DNA from: the human T2T-CHM13v2.0 reference genome, Homo sapiens
Assembly: GCF_009914755.1 (NCBI RefSeq)
Contig: NC_060935.1
DNA length: 64,000 bases
Strand: one strand, 5' to 3'
The notes under the pieces are model-generated. The model was not told the origin of the DNA. It did not search any database and saw nothing but the letters and a program-made list of their open reading frames with translations. Below, one piece after another: positions 42,756-63,774 of this stretch (position 1 is the stretch's first letter; each line of letters starts with the position of its first letter). Made by a program: the position numbers and the translations under genes.

Positions 42756-42757
<2 letters not shown>

Positions 42758-42786
<29 letters not shown>
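42758..42786. repeat. (CA)n microsatellite
   Basis: Direct reading of the sequence. Confidence 0.95.
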
Positions 42787-42977
42787 TCCTCCCCTGCAAC
42801 AGCATTTCCTCTTCTCCTTCCACTGGACTCCTCCACGCCCTGCTCACCACTTCCTGCAAGCTCACAGTGCCACCATCTGGACAAACAAAGGCAAAGCAGA
42901 TGACTGAGATGTGCAGGGAAGGACACTCAAGGGCCTGGAACACCCAGAAGAGAAGTGGCTTTGTGGGAGGAAGTCAG

Positions 42978-43113
42978 CCTGTGCTGAACATTATGGTAAC
43001 CACCAGCCACCTATGGCTACTGAGCACTTGAAATGGGGCTACTACAAGCTGAGATATGCTGCATATCCAAATGCACTCTGGATTTGAAAGACTTACTACA
43101 AAAAAAGAATGTA
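42978..43113. mobile_element. MER33-like hAT DNA transposon fragment, abruptly truncated
   Basis: ctgtgctg..tggtaaccaccagccac..gagcacttgaaatg..ggatttgaaagactta..aaaaaagaatgta; stops exactly where the duplicated segment begins. Confidence 0.75.
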
Positions 43114-43264
43114 GCTCCTGGAAGCTAAGTCTTAGTCCTAATTACTGCGTGGCTGTCCCCCCACAGGTAGTCTCTGTCACAACTCACCACCTGCTCCCTG
43201 TGCCCCGGGAACTTTCCTCTCTGGAGCAGGACCCTACAACGCCTCCTTCTGCCACCTCTGCCCT
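43114..43264 (+). repeat. 151-bp direct duplicate of 44528-44678 (intron end plus 5' part of pseudo-exon 2)
   Basis: Ungapped alignment with 9 mismatches (~94% identity). Confidence 0.97.
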
Positions 43265-44191
43265 TTTGAAAAGTAATTAATGACAAGGCCAGGACCTGAG
43301 CCTTTCTCTCCACCACCTGCTGAATGCTTTATCCGATACATCATGTGGTTATCCAAGGATTCACTGGCAGTTTTACAGTTTCCAGTTTTTCTGGGTATGC
43401 ATATTCTTTAAGAGCACTTGACTGGTTGCCTGAATTTTCAGTCTTTCTGGACCGCAGTCTTCTTTATAAACTGGGAGAAGAGAACTAAATAATCTCCAAC
43501 ATCCTTTCTAAAGCTAAAACCATATGGGTCTCTGAAACCTGGCTGTACACGCACCAAAGGCAGAAGCCTCGGGTTTTATTTCCTTTGCATCTCTCCTGCA
43601 GCATTTCACACACGGAGAGTACTTAAAGGAATCTGGCTGGCTTTGCCTTGCAGAAGAAGGGAACTGAGATGTCCCTTGCCCTCACTAAGCCCAGTTATGC
43701 ACACGCATGCACACACACCCCACCAGCTTCTCTAGGAAGGAAAAGGAGATAGGAGATAGAGAAGAACCGTGGAGAGCAGAGGCGGCAGATGGAGGCATTC
43801 CTCCGGAGAGGAAGGTTCCCGGAAGACAGGGAGGTAGGAAAAAGAGAGTGGAGACACTTAAGTTGTCTGGGCCAAAGCTGCTCAGAGGATCCATATCTTA
43901 GATTTCATCCTCATGAAATATTCAGTGAGTGCATCCCGGAGCTCCCATGGGTGGCAGAGGCTGCCCTTCCTGGGCATTTCTCTCTGAGTTGGGATCCTGG
44001 GTCCACTTGTCCCTGTGCCTCTCCTGTACCGCCACCCTCATCTTGTTTTCTCATAGTGTTGCTGGCACTGGGCCTCTGTGCTTTGCTGCCTTCTAACTCT
44101 CCATCTGCCTCCCCAGCGGTCTTTCTCAGCATCTGTCCACCCTCTTACTTCTATGCCTACCTCTCTCTCTGCCACTGTCACCCCACCCAAG

Positions 44192-44358
44192 GGTGAGGAT
44201 GCTCCCCTTTGAGGGCACCCCAGTGACATGGGCTTCCATAGCTGTCTTCTGCCATGCCCTCCAGAGTGCCACATGCCTGAGCACAGAGAACCCTCAGGAC
44301 TGCGGGAATGAGACGCCTCGTGCAAAAGAAGAGCGAGACCCACCAGGATGCAGAGAGG
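44192..44358 (+). pseudogene. Pseudo-exon 1 (5' boundary uncertain), Cys-rich
   Basis: ...GFHSCLLPCPPECHMPEH [frameshift] NPQDC...DPPGCRE-g|gtagga; phase 1 joins the next exon to give CREGSLCP. Confidence 0.5.
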
Positions 44359-44580
44359 GTAGGAGCTGGGGGTATAGTTGAGGAGTGGGGAACAGAAAAA
44401 CAGCTCTGGGGGAAGATGCTGGCTTTATGAGACACCTGGGCTGGGCTAGGGCTCAGAAGCCCCCTAATGGGAGAAGAGCACTGTCAGGGGTCCACTTGTG
44501 CCCCTGTGGGATCGTGGGTGACCCACCGCTCCTGGAAGCTAAGTCTTAGTCCTAATTACTGCATGGCTGTCCCCCTACAG

Positions 44581-44798
44581 GTAGTCTCTGTCCTAACTCA
44601 CCACCTGCTCCCTGTCCCCCGGGAACTTTCCTGTCCGGAGCAGGACCCCACAATGCCTCCTTCTGCCACCTCTGCCCTCCCAGGTTCTTCAACCCCTGGC
44701 CCGGCCAGGATGCCTGTTTCCCCTGTGGCTCAGAGGCCACCCAGCCAGAGAAGGGCAAGGACACGTGTGTCTGCCGGGGGCCTGGGCGAGTGTTCCAA
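44581..44798 (+). pseudogene. Pseudo-exon 2, ephrin-receptor-like Cys repeat
   Basis: tacag|...caa|gtatgt; open: SLCPNSPPAPCPPGTFLSGAGPHNASFCHLCPPRFFNPWPGQDACFPCGSEATQPEKGKDTCVCRGPGRVFQ. Confidence 0.9.
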
Positions 44799-44921
44799 GT
44801 ATGTCCTCTGGCAGGGGGGCCCAAGGACAGGCTGCGTTTCCAGGACTGTTTTGGTCTCAAGTCAAACTCGGCTCAGGTGTAACTTGACCAGGGTTGGCTC
44901 AGGTTTCCAAGTGACTTGGGG

Positions 44922-45090
44922 ATAGGGTTGCCAGATAAAATACAGGGTACCCAGTTAAACTTGAATTTCAGATAAATAACAAACTTTTTTTTAGTCTTGC
45001 ATGGGACATAGTTATACCAAAAAAAAAAATTGTCTAAAATTCAAATTTAACTGGGTGACCTGTGTTTTCATTTGCTAAATCTGGCTCGCC
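44922..45090. mobile_element. MER53-like palindromic DNA transposon (intronic)
   Basis: agggttgccagataaaatacagg..cccagttaaa..gaatttcag / aaattcaaatttaactggg..cctgt..atctggc inverted arms. Confidence 0.8.
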
Positions 45091-45463
45091 TTCTCCAAGA
45101 AAATGACAGACTTTATGTTGCTTTTTGCCACGATCACTTCCAAAACACATCCTAGCCCAAGCCCTTCCAACTTGAACGTTCTCTGCAAGCCAACAAATGT
45201 GCATGTGAATTCTTCCTTTGCTGAATGTCTCAAGTCTCTTTTTTTATTGAAATGATAGCACCAGCCAGACCCTTACCAGAACAGGCTGGTCTCCCCCTGA
45301 CTCCTCCCCTGCCCTGTTTATTGCTCATTTCCCCGCCCCTGCCCTTGTCTTCTGGCCCATTTCCAAAAGGGTCACAGCCAAAAACCTGGGCATGGTTCAC
45401 CACAACGAAGTATTAACCAACCAACATGAACCAGCACTCCTCCCTCCCCCTCCCCGCCCCCAG

Positions 45464-45624
45464 CCCAGTGACAGTCGGTACCCCTGCCTCCCGGGCCACC
45501 GAGACTTTGGAGAGCCAATGGGCTGTGTCCAGTGGGAACACAGGAGCTGCAAGGACGGAGCCACTGGAATCAGGAGGGGCTATGTTTGACCAAGGCTCAG
45601 TGGAATGACCACTGTGCCCACGAG
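45464..45624 (+). pseudogene. Pseudo-exon 3 (-1 frameshift ~45563)
   Basis: cccag|PSDSRYPCLPGHRDFGEPMGCVQWEHRSCKDGA[fs]WNQEGLCLTKAQWNDHCAHE|gtagga; 161 nt. Confidence 0.85.
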
Positions 45625-45843
45625 GTAGGAGAATGCCCATCTATTATGTCCTTGGCCTTCCTGCCCCTCCACCCTCCCATTCAAATGTCCACCATTCCAG
45701 CCACTGGGCTCATTCCATTGCCCCTCTCTGGAAATATAGAGGTCAGTACTTTGCACTCTCAGGCAGTTCCTAGAAGCAGCTGGAGAGAATGAGGAAGAGC
45801 TTCCCCAGGGAGGTGTCCCCAAGAAGTTTGAGTCTTTGTGCAG

Positions 45844-46027
45844 GTGTGTGCCACACCAGGAGATGCCCATGGACATGACCCAAGCCCTGGGGCTCTGCCT
45901 GTGCTGGGGACAACAGTCAAGCAGAATGTGCAGCCCTCTGTGCCCAGAGAGACAGAGACACATCTTGCAGCTCAGCTGCCCTGATGGCATCCCACAGATT
46001 TCTGTCACTGAAGGCATGGGGAGTCAG
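45844..46027 (+). pseudogene. Pseudo-exon 4 (+1 frameshift ~45880)
   Basis: tgcag|VCATPGDAHGHD[fs]QALGLCLCWGQQSSRMCSPLCPERQRHILQLSCPDGIPQISVTEGMGSQ|gtacag; 184 nt. Confidence 0.8.
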
Positions 46028-46470
46028 GTACAGTACTCTGAGGTCCTACCTCATGCAGAGCCAGGGCCTGTGACTTCTGCCTCCAAAGAGGGAGCATGCA
46101 GGACATGCCTATGTGCAGGGTCCAGAGGCTGCTGCTGCCTGGCCCACATCACTGGCACCTCACCAACATCAGAGGCTCAGAACCAGAGCAAGGCCCCTTT
46201 GTTGATTTTATTTCATCCTACAAAACTCCTTGAATAAGAGGTCATTGTGTTCATGAAAGAAGAGGGACACTGTCCAAGAGGTCATGACTCCAGGCTGCCC
46301 CTGCCCCATGGAGTTCTTGGAACTATTCCCACCCCCACCTCCCTTGTGTCCTTTCAGGACACTCAGACACAGCTCAGGGAAGGGGCTGTGTTCGCCCTCC
46401 CTTCCTACTGGGCAAGTGTGTGACTCCGTGTCTTGAGGGAAGATCTGACACTGCCTCTTTTCGTTTCCAG

Positions 46471-46576
46471 GATTTTTACCTTCTGGACCAGCCTTCCCCA
46501 CCACGTGCTGTGGGCCATCCCTGCAACTTGGACTTAGGGCAGAAGTCTGTCCCCCTCTATGTGGTCAAGATGGATG
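46471..46576 (+). pseudogene. Pseudo-exon 5
   Basis: ttccag|DFYLLDQPSPPRAVGHPCNLDLGQKSVPLYVVKMD-g|gtaaga. Confidence 0.85.
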
Positions 46577-46882
46577 GTAAGAGAGCTGGACAGATGGAGG
46601 CCACAGGGAGGCCTGTGGCTCGGGACCACACACATGCAAGCCTTGTCCTTACCAGGGCGTGTGCTCTGTCCCATGACCAGAAGCTGAGGTTTGACAGGGC
46701 AACCACTCCCCTAGGGAGGGCTCCCTGAGAACTGCATGCAAATTCTGACCCCCCTCAATGTTTCAGAAAGTTGAAGCTACCACGTGCAAACCAGGCTGAA
46801 CAGCTGCTGATTATATACATGCTCTTGGGAAAACTCTTACCCCGGTCCCTGCAGGGTCAGAGGGAATCCCTGCTTGTTCTAG

Positions 46883-47265
46883 CGCTTGGCTTCCTGGGCC
46901 TGACCAGACCAGATGGTGAGCTACTACACTCCCTAGGCCTTCCCCTCGGGGATCCCAGGTGTCCAGACCAGGATCCAGGTGGGCATCGCAGCTCACCTGT
47001 TGCCCCTCCTATCCCTCCCCTACCCTTCCCAGGTCCCAGCACAAACCCATCTGAAGAGTGGCAGCTCTCCCTCATTCTCTGAATCTTACCTAGGAAAGTC
47101 TAGGGAAGGACATCTGGACTCTTCTTGGTCACTGAGCCTCAACTCCACACATCTTGGGGATCTGCTGCCCCCAGAGCCAGGCATCCGAAACCCCACAGTC
47201 TGCCTCCAAGTCAATGATACCCTGGCCTTCCTGGTGACTCATGAGCATTACCCAGAGTATGACCT
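46883..47265 (+). pseudogene. Pseudo-exon 6 (one frameshifted exon, or two exons)
   Basis: ttctag|ALGFLGLTRPDGELLHSLGL...[frame change]...PEPGIRNPTVCLQVNDTLAFLVTHEHYPEYD-ct|gtgagt. Confidence 0.7.
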
Positions 47266-47377
47266 GTGAGTGTCCAGAGACCACAGCCCCATCATCATGG
47301 AGGCCCTAGAGAGGAAATGCCCCTGCATCAGCCACCACTCCCAAAGGCAACGTATTCCCTCCTTTCTCTCTCCTCAG

Positions 47378-47540
47378 GGGCCACTTCTATAACACACTGG
47401 AGCAATATGACTGGCGGCGCTTCCGGGCCCTGGCTGAGGAGTCCCAGCTCTATGAGCAAAGCCTCAGCCTCTTTCTGCAGCAGTTCCAAAAGCCGGGCAT
47501 TTATGTCTTTCGTCTGAGCAGCAACCGACATCGGAAGATG
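47378..47540 (+). pseudogene. Pseudo-exon 7
   Basis: cctcag|GHFYNTLEQYDWRRFRALAEESQLYEQSLSLFLQQFQKPGIYVFRLSSNRHRKM|gtttgt; phase 2 matches the upstream donor. Confidence 0.88.
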
Positions 47541-47614: not shown

Positions 47615-47927
<313 letters not shown>

Positions 47928-48539: not shown

Positions 48540-48707
48540 TATGTCCGGGCCCTCCCGCCAGGGGGCCAGTGCTGTGGGGAAGGGCCCTTTGCCTCCACAA
48601 CTCCCAGGTATCTCATCCAGACTGGCATCGCCAGGATCCCCCAGGCCCTGAAGAGGTCTGGCTGGCCAGGACTCCTGGGGGAGATTGTGCTGCTCCTGGG
48701 GCTTTGA
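48540..48707 (+). pseudogene. Pseudo-exon 8 (acceptor AG>AT; TGA within the presumptive transmembrane segment)
   Basis: cttctttccatccAT|YVRALPPGGQCCGEGPFASTTPRYLIQTGIARIPQALKRSGWPGLLGEIVLLLGL*|gtaaag. Confidence 0.8.
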
Positions 48708-49539
48708 GTAAAGCCAGACAAGCGACATCTTAACCACTCCACAAGACCACCTCTCCAATCCCCTATAAGTGGGTCTTCCATTCCTGTTTATGATAAGCAT
48801 TCTAATAGTTGCTAAGATGCAAAGGTGACAAAGGTGCAGTTTCAAGCCTCCAGGGCTTGAAACAAATACATGTCAGCAAATATAATGGAGCTAGCTAAAG
48901 CATGTCCAGGGTGCACACCAAGGCAGGAGTTGACTGTTCTCCCTGGAGAGGGTGGAGGTCAGGACAGACTTTCCAGAAGAGTTGATCCCTGAATGAGGTT
49001 TGAAACAGGAGAATTATTAATATAATGTGGTCCCTGTACTACCAGAGGGTTGGTAAGTTGAGGAGGGGGTACGCAGTGGGGAGGAGGAACAGAGATGAGA
49101 AGGGGAGTATTGTGAGCACAGCAAGCACATAGGCATGAAACAACACACATCTCCTCTGGTGACCAAACGGGGTTTCCCATGACTGGAGCTGAGGTGTGAG
49201 GACAAGGATAAGGCTGGAACTGGGAGGGAGACTAAAATGGGATGGCCTCCAGGCCCTGCTAAGAAGTTTGGACTCTAACCCCTAGGCAAGGAATAAGAAC
49301 TTTCAGCAAGTGAGAAAACCTGGTCCAACTTTTATTTGTACTCTAGCAGTAGGGTGGAGGACAGAGATGGATCAGAGGGGGAAAAACGACAGAGACCTAA
49401 ACAATTAGTCCAAGCAAGAGAGGATGAGGTGCTCCCTAACCACGGTGAAGTGCGACCTGTTTCCTTTCAGAGTCTTCAGGAAGGATGCTGCTCCCTCAGC
49501 TCGCCCTTCCCTTCCCACTCCCCATTATGTACTCTGTAG

Positions 49540-49714
49540 ATGCAGTGTCACAGCCTGAGCTGGGCTCGGAAGGCTGCTCCCCACCCCACCTTCAGGAGAC
49601 ATCAGCAAGAATGCAACCTCGATGCCTACACTTCCCCAAGAACTGGGATAATGTCAATAAGGAGAGGCCGATCTCACCAAGACTCTGACGCCCCCAGGGT
49701 TGAGGGGGGTCCTG
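49540..49714 (+). pseudogene. Pseudo-exon 9
   Basis: ctgtag|MQCHSLSWARKAAPHPTFRRHQQECNLDAYTSPRTGIMSIRRGRSHQDSDAPRVEGGP-g|gtgagt. Confidence 0.85.
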
Positions 49715-50366: not shown

Positions 50367-50488
50367 GTGGGAGCTGGGAGGCTGAGGAGCAGGTAGATCT
50401 GGAGTGGTTTGATACAGAGGCCTTCTTTGGAGACTGCCTCAGGCAGTCTCTGTCAGTGACAGCCAAACTCAGCCACACGAAGGAAGAG
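50367..50488 (+). pseudogene. Pseudo-exon 10
   Basis: ccacag|GSWEAEEQVDLEWFDTEAFFGDCLRQSLSVTAKLSHTKEE|gtaact. Confidence 0.88.
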
Positions 50489-51093
50489 GTAACTGGCAGC
50501 TCCAGGCAACACTTCTACCCAAGACTGGAGGAACATGTGGGGCTAGAAAGAGTCTCCTCTTCAGGAGAGTTGGTTATAGGACATAGAGTCCAAAGAATAT
50601 GGAACATAGAGTCCTAAAGGAATCAGAATAAAGGAGAGTATATGGGAAGGGGAGATAGAGGATTTCAGATTAAAATTAGAACTGATTTCATGAAACCTAG
50701 GGCTTCGGACCAGTAATAGGGATTCTACCAAGGCCACCATTGGAGTTCCTTCTCAGATCTCCATCCCTAGTCCTCGGTAGCCCAACTAGGTGAGCAAATT
50801 TATGCCAGTAGATGGCAGGCATTAGAAGCAAAAAGAATACATTAGAAGTCCAAGTACCAAAACTGGGCCAGGGCTTCCCCAGCAGAATGTGCATGCTGAG
50901 ACTGGCTGGGACGAGCCAGTGTCTGTCCTCATTCACTCTTTCCAAGTGTCTGGGTTGGGGGTTGGGGGTTGGGGGGTGGGGTTCTGGAGTCTCTCCAGCT
51001 GTTGGCAGCAGGGGGCGCTGCAATCACAACAGTGAGAGGCTGGGTGGCTCCGGGAACAGAGTTCACACACACTCAATCCACCCTCTCTCACAG

Positions 51094-51219
51094 CTCAAAC
51101 TCCTCTACCTTAAACTTCTGGGTGAAGCCCGTTCTCTCCAGCAGCTGTGGGGAACAAGGCGCTGCCTCCCAGCCTCCGCTAACCGGCTTCTGAGGAGCGT
51201 GCAGAGGGAGCAGCAGCAG
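51094..51219 (+). pseudogene. Pseudo-exon 11
   Basis: tcacag|LKLLYLKLLGEARSLQQLWGTRRCLPASANRLLRSVQREQQQ|gtgggc. Confidence 0.85.
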
Positions 51220-51515
51220 GTGGGCTTGGTTCACGCCTTCCTCTCTGGTCTCTGTGCCCAAACACAACTCCCTCCCCTCACTGAGGTCCAGGCTCCCTCC
51301 CTTAGCACCTCCCCAACCTGTTCCATCTCCCTGGCCCTAAAGCTCTTACCTACAGTTCCCACCATCTCTGGGAATTTCTCATCCCCTTTGCCGCTGCTGC
51401 CATGCCTGTCCAGAATAACTCTGGAGTTCCCAAGGTGAGTGGGGTGTCCCCGAGCTTGCTGTCCCTGGTGGCTGTAGCGCCTGCAGGTGAGCAGGCAGGG
51501 TTGTCTCTGACCCAG

Positions 51516-51712
51516 GCTGCTGAGGCAGCTGCCTGGGCTGCAGAAGAGAAGGCCAGCCGGAGGAGGCACCTGGCAGGCGAGTACGCAGCCAGCCTTCGTC
51601 ACCAACTCAAGCTCCTTCGCCAAAACCTCCTCGGGAGGCAGGAGCAGTGGGCCTCTTTCTGCTCCACGCTGAGGGAGGTTCAGCAGCAGCTGAAAGCACA
51701 GATGGGCTCCAG
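51516..51712 (+). pseudogene. Pseudo-exon 12, coiled coil (alternative same-phase end at 51751)
   Basis: acccag|AAEAAAWAAEEKASRRRHLAGEYAASLRHQLKLLRQNLLGRQEQWASFCSTLREVQQQLKAQMGS-ag|gtcaga. Confidence 0.8.
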
Positions 51713-51887
51713 GTCAGAGAAATCCTCTCCGGCTGGGCAGAACCCAGAAAAGTGTGGATCTGGCCAACCTGGATCAGACTTAGGGAGACATGAAATGGGG
51801 AGGAGAGAATGTGGCTGCAGGGGGTCCCGGAACTGGCCAAAACAAAACGTCCTTTTCCCACCCCTGATTGCTCCTGTGCCCCTGCAG

Positions 51888-52009
51888 GGCAGTTCCCCAG
51901 CTGGACACGGTGCTGGGCCACCTGTCCCAGGTCGTGCTGCAGGAGGGCCACCGCCTGAAGGCCTGGGGCATTCTGGGCACCGGCACTGGGGCGGAGCTAC
52001 TGAGGCCAG
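51888..52009 (+). pseudogene. Pseudo-exon 13
   Basis: ctgcag|AVPQLDTVLGHLSQVVLQEGHRLKAWGILGTGTGAELLRP-g|gtgagc. Confidence 0.88.
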
Positions 52010-52645
52010 GTGAGCTTTGCTTGGGCCTCAGCCAGGGCCCCCCAGGAAACCTGGCCCTGAATCAGGGCAACTAGCCCTGTAGAAACTCCAGTTCCACCCC
52101 CAGACACCCAGCAGGGGAGGAGAGGTAGAAGAGGGCAAAACAGAGCGGACACCCCAAGGTCGGGAGGGGCTTCCCATGCAATGCCTGCCCAAAAGAAGAA
52201 GGAGCCTCGAAAGTGGGAAGAACCAAGGAAGAAACAAAGCCATGGCAAGTCATAGCTTTATAGATCCGGAGGCACTTCCTGAAAATAAAAGCCTGGCAGA
52301 TGAAGGCAAACGGCCAAGTTTGGTAAATGATGAACCTGTCTTGGGGTCTCGCAGGCCTGCTGAGTCCTGGGAATCCCGTAGCCCCCCTGTAGGCTGTTGC
52401 CACCATTTCCCGAGGCTTTTCCAGTCTCTGCCGGCCTGCGCAATGATATCACAATGGCACGTGGAATACTGCTCTGGAGTTAGCAAAGATGAGACCCCTG
52501 CCCCCTCAGGAGCACAATGTCTGTGGAGGCTGGGGAGGAGTTCTCACCAGCTCCTTCCAGTCACCAGCCAAGGGAGTCCCCGCATGTTCCCTCTCCCACC
52601 GGCCCCCAGCCCAGGGCTAAGCAGGCAATGATTGCTTTCCTGCAG

Positions 52646-52870
52646 CCCCAGCAGGCCCTCCTGGTGCTGATGACATCAGTGTGAACCCCGTCACCAAGTT
52701 GATGGTCCCTGGCCCCAACTCCTTGATGCTTCCAGCCAGCGGCCACGCAGGCTCCATACCCCCTGGCTACTTCATCCACCCTGACACTGGGAGGGTGCTG
52801 CCCGAGGCTGGACACCTGGGATATGATCTGCTGAGAGCTACCCTGGTGCCCACTATGGACACCAATGCCG
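52646..52870 (+). pseudogene. Pseudo-exon 14
   Basis: ctgcag|PAGPPGADDISVNPVTKLMVPGPNSLMLPASGHAGSIPPGYFIHPDTGRVLPEAGHLGYDLLRATLVPTMDTNA-g|gtgagc. Confidence 0.9.
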
Positions 52871-53194
52871 GTGAGCCCCTGGCCCACTGACTATCCCCAA
52901 CTCAGCTCTGGGCTTCAGAGATGAGGCAGGGCTTGCTGGGACTCTCAGGAATGAGCTCCCAGGGAGCACAGCACAGGACGCAGGGCTCTCTCCTTGGACA
53001 GTGGGGCTTGGTGACCAGCAGAGTAGTAAATACTTCCTTCCCCTCCTCATCTTGACATTCTTGCTGGATCCAGAAGGTGCCATGAGCTGCATGGTAAAAG
53101 GAGGCAGGTCCCAAGGCCCCTCTGTCCTGCTCTGCAGGGCTGAAGGAGGCTGGTGCATTAAAGGGTACCAACAGCTCCCTGTATCCCTGTCCAG

Positions 53195-53529
53195 GTGGTG
53201 TCCGAACATCAGAAGCTGCCATCCTGCCCTATGTGCCCTACCCAACCAGTCCCACCACAGGTTCCCCTCCAGCCACGCACCTGCCCATCCTGCAGCCAAG
53301 AAGGACGTCCCCGCTGGGGGCTCTCATGACAGACCCCGTCACAGGCATCAGGGTGCCCGTGCTGGCTGTGAATCTGCACCCCCAAACAAGGCAGTGGCTC
53401 ACTCTTGGGAGGACATACTGCAATCCTCTCACCAAGACCTTGGCCCCTCTGGAGATGGGGGGCCCATGGAGGATCCAGTCACAGGAGGCATCTCGCCCAT
53501 CCTGGGAGTCGGGTTGGATGAAAACACAG
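53195..53529 (+). pseudogene. Pseudo-exon 15 (-1 frameshift ~53463)
   Basis: gtccag|GVRTSEAAILPYVPYPTSPTTG...MTDPVTGIRVPVLAVNLHPQTRQWLTLGRTYCNPLTKTLAPLEMGG[fs]MEDPVTGGISPILGVGLDENT-g|gtctcc. Confidence 0.88.
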
Positions 53530-53975: not shown

Positions 53976-54356
53976 CTCAGCTACTTGTACTGGGAGGGCT
54001 GCGAGATGCTTCGGGGAACCTCTTGCTGCCTGGTGACAGCTTTGTGGAGCCACTGAGCAGGAAGACAGTCCGGCTCCAGGGGGCTTCCTGACGAGAGGGC
54101 CAGACATTGCCCCATATGGGAGGGCCACAGGCCCTGCTGGACACCAATGTGCTAGTGGCCCAGAGGCAAGTGATTGCAGTGCTTCAGCCGTGCCAGGAGA
54201 GTCCAGAGTCGGGTGTACAGGAAACTCTGGAGGCTGCCATTAAGGACATGAGACAGCCACTGGCCTTGACTCTGCACCATGTCCTGCAGCAGGCTCAGAG
54301 GCTGGAGAGGCAGCTGGTGACAGCAGATGACATTGAAGCCAGTGGTGGCAGGATAG
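53976..54356 (+). pseudogene. Pseudo-exon 16 (in-frame TGA at 54089-54091)
   Basis: ttccag|QLLVLGGLRDASGNLLLPGDSFVEPLSRKTVRLQGAS*REGQTLPHMGGPQALLDTNVLVAQRQV...IEASGGRI-g|gtatgg. Confidence 0.9.
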
Positions 54357-55032: not shown

Positions 55033-55384
<352 letters not shown>

Positions 55385-55752: not shown

Positions 55753-55923
55753 GAATGATGCGCTATCCTGGGACAGAGCTGTGGGCCCCAGCCCTGTATG
55801 GAATGGAGATCCCAGATCCTGAGGGCTCGGGGCTCATGGTGCCTATCCTGGGCATGGAGCATGATGAGAATTCTGGCGATGCCACACCGCTGGCAGGCTC
55901 AATGGAAGACGCTGATGGCAAAG
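55753..55923 (+). pseudogene. Pseudo-exon 17 (acceptor AG>GG at 55751-55752)
   Basis: Polypyrimidine tract then gttGG|MMRYPGTELWAPALYGMEIPDPEGSGLMVPILGMEHDENSGDATPLAGSMEDADGK-g|gtagga. Confidence 0.85.
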
Positions 55924-56342
55924 GTAGGAGAGAACTTTGGACCTCTGAGAGCTCAGGAATGTGACTTAGCTCTGGGAGAGAAAACCCCCTAAAGCTCAGG
56001 AGGGGTACCCATGTGCCAAGGGAAGGGGTCATTCTGGTCTTCTGCTAGGGCTGCTGAGACCCAAAATTAAAGGTGCCCAAAGATTCCAAAACCCCAGGAC
56101 CATAAATCATGTATGTCTCCCCTAGATTATTGGGTCCTTTCAAAGACCAGCACTTCAGAAACTCACCACCCACCCCCACGCCAGGGCTGTGGCCACCAGG
56201 AGCCCTATAATCCAGCTTAGAGCCCTTTGAAGGGCAAAAGGAGGTCAGGGGCTCTTCTGGCTTCCTTTTTGCCAGAAAAAGGACCTGCCTTCCTTCCCCA
56301 TCTCTGGTTTCTAAAGCCAGTGGTGGGCTTGGCATCCCACAG

Positions 56343-56500
56343 GTCTAATCCCAATCTCGATTGGGGCTCAAGCCATAGACCCCTGGACTAGGAAGCCTGG
56401 TCCTGTCATTGGAGCTCAAACGGATCTCTCTGCCAGAGTGGTGGTGCCCGTTGTCCAGGTGCTGGAGGCTTTACCTCGGGGAGTGAGAGACCCTGGTCTG
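56343..56500 (+). pseudogene. Pseudo-exon 18
   Basis: ccacag|LIPISIGAQAIDPWTRKPGPVIGAQTDLSARVVVPVVQVLEALPRGVRDPGL|gtatgt. Confidence 0.87.
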
Positions 56501-57607
56501 GTATGTAGGGGGGTTTATTGTATTCATTTATTCATTCATTCATTCACTCAGCAACTACATATTGAGAGCTGTGTTCCAGGCAACATGTTAGGCATTGAGA
56601 TACAAGGACAACTAGATAGGGCTCCCAAGGAACTGGCTGGCCATGGGTCCCAAACAGTGGGTGGTTCACAAGGGTGTTAAGAAAGCTCAGGGGAGGGCAT
56701 CTCAACACACACAGGAGAGCTCAAGGCTTCCCAAATGAGGTAATGCACGCAGCAGAGAGACAGCAGAGAAAGTCACTCCAGCCTCGGGGAAAGCAAATGC
56801 AAAGGCAGCAAGTATGAGAAATGTATCTTCTATCATGAAAGCCACGGGGAGCTGCTGAAGGGTTCTCAGACATGGGATATAATCAAATATAAATGCAAGA
56901 CTTTAAATTTTTGAAAATATGAAACAATACAAAACATAAGTTACTCATACAATTTTAAAGTATGTCAATGAAGAAGCAAAAGCTTTCCTGCCCATTCCTC
57001 TCCCTCCACCCACAGTCAACACCCCCATGGCATCCCCATCCAGGCACTCTTTACCTCTCCCCCTGTCTCTCCCACCAAACCCAGCCACTTCACAAGTTGG
57101 CACACCTCCTCCCATTTATTTTTATGTTTATGTATGTGTAGGTACAGTCAGCGTTCTAGAAAGCTCTCCCTGGCAGCTGTGCGGAGGATGGATGGGAGTG
57201 GGGCCAGACTAGCAGAGGAAGCCCCGTCAGGAGGTTATTGCGGTAATTCAGCCATTGGCAGATCTCCACCACAATGAAAATGATTTAGGGCCCCCATACA
57301 TTCTCAGTCTGGTTACGTTTCAGAAACTGTGATAAAAGGTATGTGATAAATAAAAGGTTCTTGTTAGAAGCCAAGAAATTTCAATTCTAGCCCTGACACC
57401 ACTGTTTCACAGGTCAGTATGTCTTCACGATATGAGGAGGGTGAGAACAATTTCCTGCCGCCACGTGCCTGTCTCCTCTGGACTTCCCAAGAGAGGAGTG
57501 GGGGCAGGAGGCATGGGGGACTCTGGAGCAGGTGTCACCAGGAGGGAGGGAGGAACCAGGGAGCTTGAAGAAAATGTATGGTTATTTTTCTAGCTAAAAC
57601 CACGTTG

Positions 57608-57870
<263 letters not shown>

Positions 57871-58023
57871 TAAAACCAAGTTGATGGCCTCACCAAGTTT
57901 AGTCATAGATACCCAAGGTCAGGGAGGGCCATTACCCTGTGAAACTTTGGGGATCTACGGCTGGACCACGTGGGGCCATGAGCAGAAAAAGCCAGTAAGC
58001 CCTAAACAGGCTGGATATTGTAG

Positions 58024-58164
58024 CTGGACATCCTGGAGCAGGAGTTGAGAGCCCAGGAGCAGTACTGGTGCCACCAGGAACAGGAGGAGGAGCAGCTACT
58101 GGAACAGCTGGGGCACCTCAGCCAGGAGCTCCACTCCACGGCAGAAAGTGGCGCTGAGCAGCAG
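58024..58164 (+). pseudogene. Pseudo-exon 19, coiled coil
   Basis: ttgtag|LDILEQELRAQEQYWCHQEQEEEQLLEQLGHLSQELHSTAESGAEQQ|gtgagg. Confidence 0.85.
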
Positions 58165-58446
58165 GTGAGGCCCAGAGGCACCACCTCACAGTCCCCACCC
58201 ATCTGCCAAGATTGCACAGTTTTCTCTTTGAAAGTTTGGAGTCCTTTTCTCCCTCAACCATGGGAATGAAATCCATCTCAGAAAAGACACAGTCCCAAGA
58301 TTCCCCAGCCCCAGGCCCAAGATTTCAGTCACCCCTAAGTATCTAAGCAGGACAGAGGTAGGGGAGGAAAAGCAAACAGGAGCCCCACCCAGAGCTCCTG
58401 CCTTCCCCTCCGAGGCCCATTCCTTTGTCCCTTCTGTCCTACATAG

Positions 58447-58564
58447 CTGAAGGCTGAAGAGGAGGCCTGCCAGGCCCTTGAGTCCCGCTACCTGCAGGAG
58501 ATGGAGAGAAGAGCCAGGGCTCTGAGCACACACAGCAGCCCAGAGCGGGGCCTGCTCTCTCAAG
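58447..58564 (+). pseudogene. Pseudo-exon 20
   Basis: acatag|LKAEEEACQALESRYLQEMERRARALSTHSSPERGLLSQ-g|gtggga. Confidence 0.85.
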
Positions 58565-58807: not shown

Positions 58808-58986
58808 CAGAGAGGAGTGGGAACAGGAGGCACAGGTGGTGCTAGGTATGCAGAAGGTCCTGCAGTTTAGGGCAGGCAGCAGAAAAGCTTAGGCAAGCAG
58901 CTGGCCGGCTGCAGGGCCAGGAGGAGGAGATGCGGCTGCAGCAAAGCAGGAATCAGAGCCCACAGGTCTGGAACCGCCCCAGGAAG
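58808..58986 (+). pseudogene. Pseudo-exon 21 (two indels)
   Basis: ttgcag|[fs]EWEQEAQVVLGMQKVLQ[fs ~58866]LGQAAEKLRQAAGRLQGQEEEMRLQQSRNQSPQVWNRPRK|gtgacg; TAG at 58843 in the spliced frame. Confidence 0.8.
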
Positions 58987-59175: not shown

Positions 59176-59301
59176 GTGGTTCAGCGTCCCTCTGATGAGT
59201 TTCAGTGGGTGGTGAGGGAGAGACAGAACTTCCTGGCTAAGGCCCTGGGTCAGCTGCAGTACCGACGGGAGTGGAGCTGCCTCCAGCTGTTGCACACCCA
59301 G
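59176..59301 (+). pseudogene. Pseudo-exon 22
   Basis: ttgtag|VVQRPSDEFQWVVRERQNFLAKALGQLQYRREWSCLQLLHTQ|gtgctg. Confidence 0.83.
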
Positions 59302-59439
59302 GTGCTGATCCCTGGACTGGACTTGGCTGAGGAGATCTGTATTTCCATCTTTGATAGGGGGCCTCAGAAAGAGACTCCCAAGGCAACCACGTGGGACAGG
59401 TGGGGACCAAGCATGGAACTCTGTGCTATTTCATCCTAG

Positions 59440-59620
59440 ATGATTGCCTCAAGAACCCCTGTGTGTTTGGAGAATTACCCTGGAGACATATTCTATGGAA
59501 CAGTCACCACTTCTCTCAGGGACCGGGCTGCTACCTGCCCCCTGTTGATCCCATTCCTGAAGCAGCTCACTGCAGCGCTAGTAGGAGCTCCAGGGCTGGA
59601 GGATCAGAGGCCAGAAACAG
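59440..59620 (+). pseudogene. Pseudo-exon 23
   Basis: tcctag|MIASRTPVCLENYPGDIFYGTVTTSLRDRAATCPLLIPFLKQLTAALVGAPGLEDQRPET-g|gtcagg. Confidence 0.8.
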
Positions 59621-59763
59621 GTCAGGCTGGTCCCTATTCCAGCGTTGTCTTCTGCAGCCAATCCTGGCCATTTCAATAGGTCCTAATGCTACACTTAGAA
59701 TTCCCAGCACCATAGGCGTGTGTCCCCAGTAGGTTCTTTAGGAAGAACATTAGAGGAACCAAA

Positions 59764-60599
<836 letters not shown>

Positions 60600-60689
60600 T
60601 CCAATGCTACAGCTGGCTCCTTTTGGCTTTGGCCACAACCCTAGGCCCTCACCTCAATAACTATTTTATTCCCCTCTGTTTGGATACAG

Positions 60690-60806
60690 ATAAAGCTGAC
60701 ATCATCTGGACTTCACCATTCTTCTCCATCCTGAAGAAAACAGACATCTGGTCCCAAGCCCACAAGGAAGAAGCTGAATTGCAAAAATAAGTGTATCACA
60801 AACCAG
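60690..60806 (+). pseudogene. Pseudo-exon 24 (in-frame TAA at 60788-60790)
   Basis: atacag|KADIIWTSPFFSILKKTDIWSQAHKEEAELQK*VYHKP-g|gtaacc; phase 1-1 fits its neighbours. Confidence 0.7.
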
Positions 60807-62724
60807 GTAACCTTTTCCCTTGTAGCTCCTGTTTGGGATTCTCATGGGGGGCACTGAAGGTATGTGATGGGGTAACCCCTGGGATCTAGGAATGTTAGAA
60901 TCCTGCCTTGCCAAACATCTCTTTCTCTCTACCCCCACACTAAAGTTCCCCAAGTGATTTTCCCATATAAGGAATAACAAATAGGAATCAAAGTACCCTT
61001 ATAACTATAACTGAGCAAATTTCCAAAAGGGAATTTCCAAAGGCCCCCTGCCTTCCCCATCAAACATGAATCTAAATCTTGGGACTTCACCCCATACCAG
61101 CCAGCCACATGTTAGAAGGAGCTAATGTAAAGGTGTGAGGCAGGAAAGGGAAAAAATGAAAAGGGAAAAAAACAGAAGAAATGAACGAAGAGAAGACCTT
61201 GCTCCCCAAAGGGACCCCAGATCACTTTACCAATACCACTCCTTGGAATTGGAAGTCAAGAGAGCACGTGGCTTTCCTAACCTGAAGAGCCAGGTCCGTT
61301 TCAACTCACACACATCCCAAGTGGAAGAGAAGTAACAGAAAATGCATGTGTGCCTTTCAGTAGACCACAGTGCAGGGCTCCAGGTAAGCACAGCACCATG
61401 AACACCCCTGAACTTGAGCAGGGAAGTGCAAACTATGGCCCACTCCATACCTCCAACTCCAACCTGCTACCTGTTTTTGCATGGCCCACAAGCTAAGAAA
61501 GATTTTACATTTTAAAATGATTAGAGAAAAAATGACAAAAGAAGAATAAAAATTTTATGGAGTGCTTTATAATATGCCACATACTATTCTAACTCTTTAG
61601 ATGTATTAACTCATTTACTTTTTACAACAACCCAGTAAACTATGTACTATTACTCATCTTATAGATGAGGGAACTGAAGCTCCTGGATAGGTCAAGAAAG
61701 TATTCAAAGATCATATTGCTAGTGAGTAGTTCAGCTGGAATTCAATCCCCAAGAGTCTTTCCCCAGACCCTGTGCTCCTCACGTGCTTCCTCAAATGAAA
61801 AGTTGTTCAACACTATGAAGGCAGTGCCAAAAGAAGATGCAGGTAACACATTTTGGTGAGTTCCCAGGAGGGCAGATCACTTGCTTTTCTGGACCAGAGA
61901 AGCAAGAGAAGGCTTTGTAGGAGAATGAGGCCATGCTTCTACCGTGAGGAAAGGGAACACTAACTTTGAACCCTAATTTTGGCTTTTGGCTAACAAAGCC
62001 TAAAATACTTACTATCTGGCCCTTTCCAGAAAAAAAAAGTTTACTGACTCCAGAGAACTTGACCAATCTCATTATTAATTCCTCCTTTCTTTGGGTGAAA
62101 CTAGGAAGGGAATGGCAGAGAAATGAGCTCTCCTTTAAGGGTTCCCAGCCCCACTTCAACCTTCGTCTTGCCATTATACTGGCCTTGTAATTTTGAGAGT
62201 AATTTTATATACATTATCTTGTTTATATCTTCTAGTTCTAGAAGATAGTAGAAGGTTATTAATTACTTTTTAATAGATGAGAACTGATGCTCAAAGAAGT
62301 TCAGTGACTTTCTTGGGGTCTTATAGAACCTGGGCCAGAACACAGGTCTTCTGACTGCTACTTCAGCAGTCTTCCCTAAACTTTGCTACCAATCCATTCT
62401 TTATTGTTCTCTCAAAAACAATTAAAAAAATAGAAATTTTAAATACTCAAGGCCATTACAGACATTCCGTACAGATATTGTAGGGAAGTAAGATTCTTAA
62501 ATATATTTAACATTTGCTGAATGCTTTCTATGTACTAGACACTGTTCTGAGTATATTACATTTAATGCTCCAAGCAACTCAAGGAAATAGAAGAAGAAAA
62601 TCTGTTGCCATCTTCTGTGGACCCTCATTCTGTCCTAGCCCCTCTGTTCCTATTGACTGAAAATCATTTTTTCCATAAAGGTGGACAGAAGACCATGTAG
62701 CATGATGCATATATAGCACAGGAG

Positions 62725-62768
62725 GATGGATGGGTGGGTGGATGGATGGATGGATGGATGATAGATGG
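62725..62768. repeat. (TGGA)n microsatellite
   Basis: Direct reading of the sequence. Confidence 0.9.
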
Positions 62769-62868
62769 TTGCAATAAACCTTTTCCTAAATTGAGTTGTG
62801 TTGTTAACATATCATTATTGTACAGAAAAGTTAGTGAAATTATTACTGGTTTCTCCTGATCTCTGTAG

Positions 62869-63020
62869 ACCCAAAGAGCTCTCTGCAGGATCTTCTAAAA
62901 CCTCAGACACTGCAGAAGGAAGAGTTGATAACTGTGCAACCCACTGACCTTTCTGCCAGGGAGTTTGTGGTTTACCAGTATGGCCTCTCCATCCTGCACC
63001 TCCTTATCCCCCAGCTTCAT
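62869..63020 (+). pseudogene. Pseudo-exon 25
   Basis: ctgtag|PKSSLQDLLKPQTLQKEELITVQPTDLSAREFVVYQYGLSILHLLIPQLH|gtaagt. Confidence 0.88.
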
Positions 63021-63687
63021 GTAAGTCTTGTTTCTGGCCTCTCTATGGAGCAGTTACTCATGGAGCCTAGAAGGTCAGGGTAGCCAGGAAGAAGCCTTTG
63101 AGATGGCAGATATTCCCTAGGATTAAGCACCTGGAACAGCAAACTTTCTAGTCTCTCCTTTAAGGGGATTTATGGGAGTTATTTTACCAATCCAAAGTCT
63201 AATCTCTCGAATGATATTAATCACAGGTAGAATGAATTAGTCACTTTCTACATGCCAGAAAATATTCTAATAACTTCCATTAATTAACTCATGTAATCCT
63301 CAAAAAACCCTATGAGACAGATACTATTATTTTTCCTATTTTAAAATTGAGCAGAAGAGACACAGTGGTTACATAAACTTACCCAAGATCACACAGCCAA
63401 AAAGGCAGAGCCAAGGTTAAAATCTAGGCATCATGGCTCAAATCTCTCTAGTCTAGTCAAGTTCTATTTAGAAAAGTAGTAAATTGATTGTCATATTTAG
63501 CATAAATATTAAATATGCAGTTACTCTTTCCATTTTCCTGTATACTAAGCCTACTTACCCTGTTGCAATTTAAATTAATGCCCCAATGCATTTACTTCTC
63601 ATCAATTTGGCTGATGCCACGTAGCTGAGATGCATGAGAATTTTTTAGCAAAAGGATAGGTTTGGTTTTGTTTTTTATTCTTTTCAG

Positions 63688-63774
63688 GCTCCAGAAATCA
63701 CCCTGAAGATTTCTTCTCATCTTCCTGCCATGGAAGCCCAAGGCAGTGCCTTCCAAGGTGCCTTCTTCTACCAG
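63688..63774 (+). pseudogene. Pseudo-exon 26 (last in window)
   Basis: tttcag|APEITLKISSHLPAMEAQGSAFQGAFFYQ|gtgctg; no stop, so the gene continues. Confidence 0.85.

What the first reader, a model, noticed from the sequence alone, without database searches (positions are those of the whole stretch)
44192..46027. N-terminal Cys-rich ephrin-receptor-like (GCC2/GCC3) repeats
Seen: CREGSLCP..PAPCPPGTF......C.LCPP.FFNPWPGQDACFPCGSEATQPEKGKDTCVC, followed by further Cys-spaced exons (CLPG, CKDG, GLCLC, CSPLC). Established: CP.G.[FY] and C.PC patterns define Pfam Ephrin_rec_like (PF07699) modules found in extracellular regions of SCUBE, SVEP1, Eph-type and many invertebrate/protist surface proteins. 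Inference: this is the membrane-proximal part of an extracellular domain.
Basis: partly seen in the sequence, partly recalled or inferred. Interest (0 to 1): 0.7.

Follow-up and report, generated by a model that had tools for sequence, protein, structure and literature searches.

The report
Dead human gene for membrane receptor
The cysteine-rich coding-looking exons are real, but they are the start of a large, ancient membrane-protein gene that is intact in mice, bats and fish and has decayed into a transcribed pseudogene in humans.

Summary
The peptide is in the sequence as described: exon 1 (44199-44358) splices to exon 2 (44581-44798) to read ...CREG|SLCP.... It is exon 2 of a 30-exon, ~25 kb gene relic on the + strand (44199 to ~69560, past the window end).

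Intact orthologs are uncharacterised ~1,600-1,700 aa proteins ("Gm32742", "RGD1562811", zebrafish-type "si:dkey-103g5.4"). They occur from a sea slug and fishes to non-primate mammals, one copy per species.

The human copy has about 11 disabling lesions: three in-exon stop codons, five in-exon frameshifts, one out-of-phase junction and two non-AG acceptors. The first is a 1-nt deletion in exon 3, which leads to a TGA. No paralog was found in the human genome. RefSeq lncRNAs LOC107984386 and LOC644277 reuse its splice sites.

The Ephrin_rec_like call is essentially right but divergent. The human exon scores 18.0 bits against a cut-off of 23.1, while 7 of 35 relatives pass. The modelled fold matches Eph, CaSR, Elapor1 and TNFR Cys-rich domains (Z 5-7).

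This is the N-terminal, membrane-distal part. A cupredoxin-like domain lies next to the membrane.

Verdict: a unitary pseudogene of an unstudied ancient receptor-like family. Moderate interest.

The parts
44199..44358 (+). Relic exon 1: ATG, hydrophobic signal-peptide-like segment and the first cysteines. A weakly conserved Cys (5 of 8 orthologs) is Arg in human.
   Evidence: GT donor at 44359. RefSeq lncRNA LOC107984386 exon 44265-44358 uses the same donor.
44581..44798 (+). Relic exon 2 (218 nt, open): two tandem GCC2/GCC3-like Cys-rich modules (CPPGTF...CHLC and CPPRFF...CFPC...CVC). All 9 cysteines are kept. The Gly of the second CPxG motif is Arg in human.
   Evidence: (Ephrin_rec_like 18.0 bits, E 0.0026, 2 stretches)
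45464..45624 (+). Relic exon 3: 161 nt, where 14 of 16 orthologs have 54 codons (the other two rows are partial or empty). There is a 1-nt deletion at about 45563-45567 (after KDGAT), and the shifted frame stops at TGA 45587-45589. Conserved Cys144 is Tyr.
   Evidence: The orangutan model P0003 reads this exon in one frame.
45844..46027 (+). Relic exon 4: 184 nt against 61 codons (183 nt) in the bat protein, with a 1-nt insertion within 45877-45895. Encodes GLCLCWGQ...MCSPLC.
46471..47540 (+). Relic exons 5-8 (46471-46576, 46883-46978, 47094-47265, 47378-47540), all open with GT-AG sites. They encode the linker and most of the cupredoxin-like beta-sandwich.
   Evidence: fold. lncRNA LOC644277 uses exons 5 and 8 exactly.
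48540..48707 (+). Relic exon 9: end of the ectodomain and start of the transmembrane helix. The acceptor dinucleotide reads AT, not AG. TGA at 48705-48707 stands where 30 of 37 filled family rows have Cys.
49537..49714 (+). Relic exon 10 (49540-49714), with TAG at 49537-49539 directly upstream. Five or six hydrophobic residues of the transmembrane helix (CLLLLI in bat) have no intact human counterpart.
   Evidence: lncRNA LOC644277 exon starts at 49540.
50367..53529 (+). Relic exons 11-16 (cytoplasmic tail, first DPxTG repeat block). Frameshift in the G6C3 run at 53457-53465 in exon 16.
   Evidence: Marmoset and macaque models read through this site.
53976..54356 (+). Relic exon 17, with an in-frame TGA at 54089-54091 followed by CGA. 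Every filled row of the 51-sequence alignment A2 has a sense residue at this position.
55753..58564 (+). Relic exons 18-21. The acceptor before exon 18 reads GG (55751-55752), not AG.
58808..58986 (+). Relic exon 22: two indels, one at about 58808-58811 and one at about 58862-58866. The conserved peptide between them is out of the spliced frame, which contains a TAG.
59176..63774 (+). Relic exons 23-27 (59176-59301, 59440-59620, 60690-60806, 62869-63020, 63688-63774). TAA at 60788-60790 in exon 25, where the commonest residue in A2 is Gln (16 of 36 filled rows). Exons 28-30 lie outside the window (65331-65475, 65918-66115, 69432-~69560), and the exon 27/28 junction is out of phase.
43114..43264 (+). 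Partial duplicate (94% identical, 151 nt) of the intron 1 / exon 2 boundary, 1,414 bp upstream. It reads GSLCHNSPPAPCAPGTF...CHLCPFEK followed by a stop.

Best explanation
**What it is.** The finding is the 5' end of a unitary pseudogene: the decayed human ortholog of a large single-copy gene (rodent 'Gm32742' / 'RGD1562811', fish 'si:dkey-103g5.4').

**The intact protein.** In species where the gene is intact it encodes a ~1,600-1,700 aa single-pass membrane protein with these parts:
- a signal-peptide-like N-terminus;
- a Cys-rich domain of the Ephrin_rec_like / TNFR type (exons 2-3);
- a mixed linker (exons 3-5);
- a copper-less cupredoxin-like beta-sandwich next to the membrane (exons 6-9);
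- one transmembrane helix (exons 9/10);
- a ~1,200 aa cytoplasmic tail with two blocks of ~15-residue [D/H/N]PxTG beta repeats, a long helical bundle and a C-terminal alpha/beta domain carrying a nearly invariant H-C-x-[A/S]-H string.

**The human copy.** All 30 coding exons are still recognisable, in order and with introns, but no long protein can be made. A 1-nt deletion in exon 3 leads to a TGA after about 165 codons. About ten more stops, frameshifts and lost acceptors follow. The locus is still transcribed, since two RefSeq lncRNAs reuse the ancestral splice sites.

**Shown:** the exon structure, the lesions, the orthology, the absence of a detectable paralog and the domain folds of the models.

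**Inferred:** the ancestral bases at the splice sites, the signal peptide and type I topology, and the idea that the intact protein acts as a receptor or adhesion-type scaffold that binds a partner through its Cys-rich ectodomain.
For: **Orthology**
- The exon-2 peptide hits 22 proteins.
- Bat P0008 (1,706 aa) and fox P0010 map colinearly on the + strand from 44166 to 63774 and on to about 69557.
- All 30 genome matches lie at this one locus.

**Exon model**
- 30 coding exons, 5,052 nt; 29 of 29 donors are GT and 27 of 29 acceptors are AG.

**Lesions**
- Exon 3 is 161 nt, where 14 of 16 orthologs have 54 codons.
- Exon 4 carries +1 nt.
- TGA at 48705-07, TAG at 49537-39, frameshift at 53457-65, TGA at 54089-91, two indels in exon 22, TAA at 60788-90, and acceptors reading AT and GG.
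- The family has sense residues at the three stop positions.

**Relaxed constraint**
- The human reading differs at 14 of 160 positions that are at least 90% conserved in 51 family members. Each of 11 intact mammals differs at 1-4 of 138-162.

**Family**
- 98 long relatives, from mammals to a ray, teleosts and a sea slug.
- The tree follows the species tree with one copy per species.
- Full-length members have a single strong hydrophobic segment between ectodomain and tail.

**Paralog search**
- The ectodomain query finds only this locus, its small duplicate and two weak (27-bit) chr2 matches.

**Folds**
-.
Against: - Only one human haplotype (T2T-CHM13) was examined, so polymorphism of individual lesions was not tested.
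- No orthologous genomic DNA from other mammals was available. The two 'lost acceptors', the exact nature of the exon 9/10 damage and the two junction-phase problems rest on protein alignments and on the human sequence alone.
- Exons 1-2 are fully open and keep all their cysteines, and the locus is transcribed. A short N-terminal product is therefore not formally excluded.
- Many non-primate database models are also short (for example dog 244 aa), so short primate models by themselves do not prove decay in those species.
Confidence: 0.93

Rival explanations
1. The locus still makes a short secreted Cys-rich protein from exons 1-3: signal peptide plus about one and a half Cys-rich modules, ending at the TGA in exon 3.
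For: Exons 1 and 2 are open, start with an ATG, keep canonical splice sites and all nine exon-2 cysteines. The region is transcribed (RefSeq lncRNAs in the hub annotation).
Against: - The annotated transcripts do not keep the coding structure. LOC107984386 starts its second exon at 44265, downstream of the ATG, and uses an internal piece of exon 2 (44684-44775).
- Conserved residues are already lost in this part: Cys144 to Tyr, and Gly of CPxG to Arg.
- A stop this early in a multi-exon transcript would normally trigger nonsense-mediated decay (established knowledge, not tested here).
Confidence: 0.04
2. It is an intact human protein-coding gene that annotation has missed.
For: High residual similarity to orthologs: 1,289 of 1,661 aligned residues (77.6%) are identical to bat. 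Most splice sites are preserved.
Against: - Three in-exon stop codons, five in-exon frameshifts, an out-of-phase junction and two non-AG acceptors.
- No human protein appears among the hits of three database searches.
Confidence: 0.01
3. It is a duplicated or processed pseudogene of a functional human parent gene, or a chance Cys-rich open frame.
For: A small local duplicate of the exon-2 start exists at 43114-43264.
Against: - Introns are retained in all 29 positions.
- All 30 matches of the full protein fall at this locus.
- The ectodomain query finds no second copy.
- E-values down to 5e-41 exclude chance.
Confidence: 0.01
4. The relic has been kept as a functional non-coding RNA locus (LOC644277 / LOC107984386), or as regulatory or antisense sequence for BTG4. 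This is compatible with the pseudogene reading.
For: - The lncRNA exons coincide with relic exons 3, 5, 8 and 10 (hub annotation).
- A BTG4 alternative exon (63559-63812, minus strand) overlaps relic exon 27.
Against: No evidence of RNA-level function was obtained. Rfam finds nothing in the window. Transcription of young pseudogenes is common.
Confidence: 0.12

Closest known systems
Uncharacterised vertebrate orthologs: mouse-type 'predicted gene 32742' (Gm32742), rat RGD1562811, fish si:dkey-103g5.4, e.g. bat P0008 (1,706 aa)
   Same: Same gene: colinear exon-by-exon match over residues 1-1706, 77.6% identity to bat, and the same domain order.
   Different: The human copy carries about 11 disabling lesions and is annotated only as lncRNAs. 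The orthologs are open. None has a described function: the two papers found only list the gene in expression tables.
Ephrin_rec_like / GCC2-GCC3 Cys-rich modules (Pfam PF07699), as in the Eph receptor Cys-rich domain, ELAPOR1 and Chlamydomonas mastigoneme Mst1
   Same: - The C-x2-C-P-x-G-x-[F/Y] ... C-x2-C spacing.
- Model residues 118-209 superpose on EphB2 7s7k (Z 7.1, rmsd 2.3 over 67 residues, 27% id), EphA2, Elapor1 9vql (Z 6.1, rmsd 1.5 over 54, 33% id) and Mst1 8tx1 (Z 5.7).
- The family profile hits Mst1 at E 1.8e-5 and EphB2 at E 0.005.
   Different: - The human exon and all vertebrate orthologs scanned score below Pfam's cut-off (16-21 vs 23.1 bits).
- No kinase, ephrin-binding or fibronectin domains.
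- The modules here are followed by a cupredoxin-like domain.
TNF-receptor and CaSR/TAS1R Cys-rich domains
   Same: Disulfide-laddered elongated fold. 4-1BB is the Foldseek top hit (E 9.7e-4). CaSR 5k5s gives Z 7.1, rmsd 2.0 over 52 residues.
   Different: Pfam TNFR_c6 gives only E 0.07. The rest of the architecture is unrelated.
Cupredoxins (plastocyanin, pseudoazurin, amicyanin)
   Same: Model residues 321-479 cover whole cupredoxins: plastocyanin 7zqe_M, Z 7.0, rmsd 2.4, 89 of 98 residues. 22 of the 50 listed rows are cupredoxin-type.
   Different: No conserved Cys at the expected copper-ligand position, which is R/K/Q/S/G. Sequence identity is 8-14%. Z around 7 is only middling.
Human unitary pseudogenes in general (for example GULOP; recalled, not from a call)
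   Same: An ancient single-copy gene disabled in place, with introns kept, no parent copy, and residual transcription.

Membership tests
Pfam Ephrin_rec_like (PF07699, GCC2/GCC3) | Score at or above the curated gathering cut-off (23.1 bits) | tested here: not met
   The human exon-2 frame scores 18.0 bits, E 0.0026. Close orthologs and primate models score 16.2-21.0 bits in 7 of 9 and give no hit in 2 of 9. Homologs do pass: 1 of 16 (P0102, 35.1 bits) and 6 of 10 (P0104 31.2, P0142 52.2, P0184 167.1, and three at 23.3-24.0). That makes 7 of 35 relatives. The sequence is therefore filed as a divergent relative, not a threshold-level member.
Pfam Ephrin_rec_like (PF07699, GCC2/GCC3) | Cysteine spacing with the CPxGx[F/Y] motif and paired CxxC | tested here: met
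   Module 1 reads CPPGTF...CHLC. Module 2 reads CPPRFF...CFPC...CVC in human and CPRGFF / CPPGFF in bat, colobus and orangutan. All nine exon-2 cysteines are conserved in 11-16 of 11-16 orthologs and kept in human.
Pfam Ephrin_rec_like (PF07699, GCC2/GCC3) | Fold of the Eph-receptor Cys-rich domain | tested here: inconclusive
   The marsupial ortholog model has pLDDT 82-96 over this part. It matches EphB2 7s7k at Z 7.1 (rmsd 2.3, 67 residues), EphA2 8trs at Z 5.9 and Elapor1 at Z 6.1. Foldseek gives probability 1.00 to EphA2 8tv1 and to Elapor1. The result is consistent, but Z below 8 is in the range the tool calls common.
Unitary pseudogene | Intact orthologs in other lineages | tested here: met
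   98 long relatives at E no higher than 0.001. Full-length open proteins occur in bats, carnivores, ruminants, rodents, birds, reptiles, frogs and fishes. The tree follows the species tree.
Unitary pseudogene | Disabling lesions in the coding sequence | tested here: met
   Three in-exon stops, five in-exon frameshifts, one out-of-phase junction and two non-AG acceptors.
Unitary pseudogene | No functional parent or paralog in the same genome; introns retained | tested here: met
   All 30 matches of P0008 lie at this locus, although that search used a stricter first look. With P0017 as query, the only matches are this locus, its small duplicate and two 27-bit chr2 matches. There are 29 introns.
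Unitary pseudogene | Conserved gene neighbourhood with the intact orthologs | not tested
   No non-human vertebrate genomes could be read. The only hint is that one bird gene model of this family is named 'OCA domain-containing protein', i.e. fused to a POU2AF-type neighbour.
Cupredoxin (type-1 copper protein) | Greek-key beta-sandwich fold | tested here: inconclusive
   Z 7.0 to plastocyanin over 89 of 98 residues, and 22 of 50 rows are cupredoxin-type. Foldseek matches 7pcy with probability 0.96 and TM 0.56. Z is middling.
Cupredoxin (type-1 copper protein) | His/Cys/His/Met copper ligands | tested here: not met
   The position before the conserved LSSNxHxxM string, where the ligand Cys would be expected, is R/K/Q/S/G in the 36-sequence alignment. 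Cys occurs there in only 1 of 16 mammal-type rows. The equivalence of positions was judged from sequence, not from a superposition.
Zincin-type metallopeptidase (minigluzincins: selecase, jannalysin, abylysin) | HEXXH zinc-binding and catalytic motif | tested here: not met
   The family has H-C-x-[A/S]-H (His 42 of 46, Cys 43 of 47, His 42 of 44 filled rows; the sea slug has HSLAH). No row has Glu. In human the first His is Arg.
Zincin-type metallopeptidase (minigluzincins: selecase, jannalysin, abylysin) | Fold similarity of the C-terminal tail domain | tested here: inconclusive
   Foldseek gives probability 1.00 but E 0.026-0.12, with TM 0.57-0.61 relative to the ~105-residue targets. The output does not give the aligned range in the model, so the assignment to the C-terminal domain is my inference. 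These entries are not among the 50 rows VIA listed, which helical bundles fill.

The most novel reading that the evidence does not exclude
The relic records the loss, somewhere on the primate lineage leading to humans, of an ancient single-copy bilaterian membrane-protein family that nobody has studied.

The family combines an Eph-receptor-like Cys-rich domain and a copper-less cupredoxin-like domain outside the cell. In unnamed giant proteins this ~370-residue pair recurs, with up to 32 matched stretches in one protein. Inside the cell it has a ~1,200-residue tail with [D/H/N]PxTG beta repeats and an H-C-x-x-H zincin-like end domain.

Humans have no detectable paralog. A receptor-type function that mouse, bat, chicken and fish still have would therefore be absent in humans.
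Probability: 0.55. Interest if true: 0.6.

Novelty: new member of a known kind. Interest (0 to 1): 0.45.

Why it matters
- **Annotation.** It turns two anonymous lncRNA loci at 11q23.1 into one explained object: the transcribed remains of a 30-exon gene.
- **Gene loss.** It adds a clear, many-lesion gene loss on the human lineage, with no paralog detected in the genome to back it up. This matters when mouse or rat results for Gm32742 / RGD1562811 are carried over to humans.
- **An unstudied family.** It points to a widely conserved family whose ectodomain and tail have no Pfam family beyond one weak Cys-rich module. Function can be tested in mouse or zebrafish, where the gene is intact.

Tried and rejected
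**Searches that gave nothing**
- ESM Atlas look-alike searches of the bat ectodomain (1-500) and tail (760-1180): no usable hit.
- phmmer of the whole bat protein against PDB sequences: only a chance-level hit, E 0.37.
- Profile of the tail-bearing alignment against PDB: only the EphB2 and thyroglobulin Cys-rich regions, nothing for the tail.
- Rfam over the window: 0 matches.

**Structure searches of the tail**
- VIA search of the tail model: only generic four-helix bundles on residues 487-688 (Z up to 14.2, which the tool says is ordinary for helical models). The beta-repeat blocks were barely tested.
- Foldseek rows for beta-propellers had probability 0.05-0.11, so no fold is claimed for the DPxTG repeats.

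**Literature**
- 'LOC644277': 0 papers.
- 'dkey-103g5.4': 0 papers.
- 'Gm32742' / 'RGD1562811': 2 papers, table mentions only.
- 'unitary pseudogene' / '11q23.1' / 'human-specific gene loss': 1 irrelevant plant paper.

**Rejected or corrected**
- A copper-binding cupredoxin (no ligand Cys) and an active zincin protease (no HEXXH) were considered and rejected.
- A first count of 19 human differences at conserved positions included HSP-edge artefacts in introns. Restricted to exon codons the count is 14 of 160.

**Could not be settled**
- Dating the loss from primate protein models. All 8 primate models are short and patchy, but so are some carnivore models.
Full report
**1. Observation.** Frame +3 is open from 44556 to 44882 and reads ...GSLCPNSPPAPCPPGTFLSGAGPHNASFCHLCPPRFFNPWPGQDACFPCGSEATQPEKGKDTCVC.... 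An ATG at 44199 opens an upstream exon. Its GT donor follows 44358, and the AG acceptor before 44581 joins it in phase 1, giving ...CREG|SLCP... exactly as written. CLPG and CKDG are in the next exon (45464-45624); GLCLC and CSPLC are in the one after (45844-46027).

**2. What it belongs to.** The exon-2 peptide finds 22 proteins (E 5e-41 to 5e-3) when longer proteins are allowed. The long hits are uncharacterised proteins of ~1,500-1,700 aa named 'predicted gene 32742', 'RGD1562811' or 'LOC...', from bats, fox, hyena, ibex and many rodents.
- Bat P0008 (1,706 aa) and fox P0010 map colinearly on the + strand from 44166 to 63774, covering residues 1-1552.
- A search of the window's own genome puts all 30 matches at chr11:111458166-111483557, which is window 44166-69557.
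- I fetched the 7 kb beyond the window and built a splice-aware model: 30 coding exons, 5,052 nt, 29 of 29 donors GT, 27 of 29 acceptors AG.

**3. The human copy is broken.**
- Exon 3 has 161 nt, whereas 14 of 16 orthologs have exactly 54 codons; the other two rows are partial or empty. One base is missing after KDGAT (~45563-45567), and the shifted frame ends at TGA 45587-45589.
- Exon 4 has 184 nt against 61 codons in bat: a 1-nt insertion within 45877-45895.
- The dinucleotide before exon 9 is AT, and before exon 18 it is GG.
- TGA 48705-48707 stands where 30 of 37 filled family rows have Cys. TAG 49537-49539 lies directly before exon 10. Five or six residues of the transmembrane helix have no human counterpart.
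- Exon 16 changes frame in a G6C3 run (53457-53465).
- Exon 17 has TGA at 54089-54091.
- Exon 22 has two indels with a TAG between them in the spliced frame.
- Exon 25 has TAA at 60788-60790.
- The exon 27/28 junction is out of phase.
- The family has sense residues at all three stop positions.

The human reading is still 77.6% identical to bat (1,289 of 1,661 residues). It nevertheless differs at 14 of 160 positions that are at least 90% conserved in a 51-sequence family alignment, against 1-4 of 138-162 in each of 11 intact mammals. The ancestral state of the two acceptors and of the two awkward junctions is inferred, because no other vertebrate genome could be read here.

**4. It is a unitary pseudogene.** Introns are retained. 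The full protein matches nowhere else in the genome (which used a stricter first look). The shorter ectodomain query finds only this locus, its small duplicate at 43142-43267 and two 27-bit matches on chr2. No human protein appears in any of the three protein searches. The RefSeq lncRNA LOC644277 uses relic exons 3, 5, 8 and 10, and LOC107984386 shares the exon-1 donor (hub annotation). The relic is therefore still transcribed and spliced at ancestral sites.

**5. The family.**
- The conserved tail region finds 98 long relatives: mammals, turtles, crocodilians, birds, squamates, frogs, a ray, bichir, gar, coelacanth, teleosts ('si:dkey-103g5.4'), a sea slug and unnamed records.
- A maximum-likelihood tree of 51 members follows the vertebrate species tree with one copy per species, and has a long mammalian stem branch of 0.95.
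- Full-length members have one strong hydrophobic segment between ectodomain and tail. The distant P0102 aligns to bat residues 61-1375 in a single piece.
- An exhaustive phmmer search with the marsupial ectodomain gives 590 hits at E no higher than 1e-3 and 227 at no higher than 1e-10. The whole ~370-residue unit recurs in giant proteins of 3,000-7,500 aa, with up to 32 matched stretches in one protein.

**6. The domain question.**
- Pfam Ephrin_rec_like is the only family that ever appears. The human exon scores 18.0 bits against a cut-off of 23.1.
- It scores 16-21 bits in 7 of 9 close relatives. It passes in 1 of 16 and 6 of 10 more distant relatives, including P0104. P0104 is the closest relative of the marsupial ectodomain in the representative library (E 6e-90) and scores 31.2 bits at the equivalent module.
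- The family profile hits the Ephrin_rec_like protein Mst1 at E 1.8e-5 and EphB2 at E 0.005.
- An AlphaFold model of the marsupial ectodomain (pLDDT 72, pTM 0.70; residues ~120-480 mostly above 85) was searched against PDB by two methods.
- All 50 rows that VIA listed fall into two classes. 28 rows are Cys-rich domains on model residues 118-209: CaSR Z 7.1, EphB2 Z 7.1, Elapor1 Z 6.1, Mst1 Z 5.7, TNFR family about 5. 22 rows are cupredoxins on residues 321-479: plastocyanin Z 7.0, rmsd 2.4, 89 of 98 residues.
- Foldseek agrees.
- The expected copper-ligand Cys is not conserved.

The part in question is N-terminal and membrane-distal, and the membrane-proximal domain is the cupredoxin-like one.

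**7. The tail (outside the finding, for context).** The model of a tail-only bat protein (P0023, which equals bat residues 686-1706; pLDDT 76, pTM 0.62) shows:
- two beta-rich blocks built from a ~15-residue [D/H/N]PxTG motif that is conserved from the sea slug to mammals;
- long helices that give only generic bundle matches;
- a C-terminal alpha/beta domain.

Foldseek lists small archaeal zincins (selecase, jannalysin, abylysin) at probability 1.00 but E 0.026-0.12. The family keeps H-C-x-[A/S]-H, never HEXXH. I treat this as a lead only.

**8. Timing of the loss.** All eight primate models recovered are short (246-796 aa) and patchy. The marmoset and macaque models read through the exon-16 frameshift site and the exon-17 TGA. 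The orangutan model reads exon 3 as 54 codons in one frame, though it has lost a different conserved cysteine. At least these three human lesions are therefore younger than the respective splits. When the gene first died cannot be told from protein models.

**9. Literature.**
- 'LOC644277': 0 papers.
- 'dkey-103g5.4': 0 papers.
- 'Gm32742' / 'RGD1562811': 2 papers. I saw only the passages, both lines in expression tables: PMC10531624 and PMC5068731.
- A search on unitary pseudogene terms gave one unrelated plant paper, seen as a listing only.

The library does not cover most subscription journals, so 'not in print' holds only for these searches.

**10. Verdict.** The object is the transcribed relic of a 30-exon gene for an ancient, unstudied single-pass membrane protein. 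Confidence in the pseudogene reading is 0.93. Novelty: a new member of known kinds, namely a unitary pseudogene and an Ephrin_rec_like-type ectodomain. Interest is moderate (0.45), mainly for the gene loss without a detectable paralog and for the uncharacterised family it points to.

Noticed in passing
window 43114-43264: A 151-nt copy (94% identical) of the last 53 nt of intron 1 plus the first 98 nt of relic exon 2, lying 1,414 bp upstream of the original. It is open for 44 codons and then stops. Its age and origin are unknown.
   Followed up: partly
window 63559-63812 (minus strand) vs 63688-63774 (plus strand): An alternative upstream exon of BTG4 transcripts overlaps relic exon 27 on the opposite strand. 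Another BTG4 alternative exon (55395-55619) lies in relic intron 17, next to a masked repeat.
   Followed up: no
window 45469-49676 and 41997-44775: RefSeq lncRNAs LOC644277 and LOC107984386 are built from the relic's own exons and splice sites: relic exons 3, 5, 8 and 10, plus the exon-1 donor.
   Followed up: yes
L010 (G000:C2:110770900-110771800), positions 180-617; its twin is at G000:C2:110444806-110445018, minus strand: A duplicated pair on chromosome 2 holds a 145-codon open frame with a GCC2/GCC3-like cysteine pattern. Pfam Ephrin_rec_like scores 21.9 bits, just under the cut-off, and the frame is 42% identical to the marsupial Cys-rich part over 70 residues. Possibly another Cys-rich exon or relic.
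   Followed up: partly
family alignment A2, bat residues 1577-1581 (human codons near 65401, outside the window): A nearly invariant H-C-x-[A/S]-H string in the C-terminal tail domain, together with weak Foldseek matches to minimal archaeal zinc peptidases. This suggests a zincin-like domain without the catalytic Glu. In human the first His is Arg.
   Followed up: partly
proteins P0130, P0140, P0184 and others: Unnamed giant proteins (3,000-7,500 aa) repeat the whole Cys-rich plus cupredoxin-like unit, with up to 32 matched stretches. Pfam recognises only Ephrin_rec_like in them.
   Followed up: partly
window 47588-47917: Alu-type repeats (GGCTCACACCTGTAATCCCAGCACTTTGGGAGGC...) sit in relic intron 8.
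   Followed up: no
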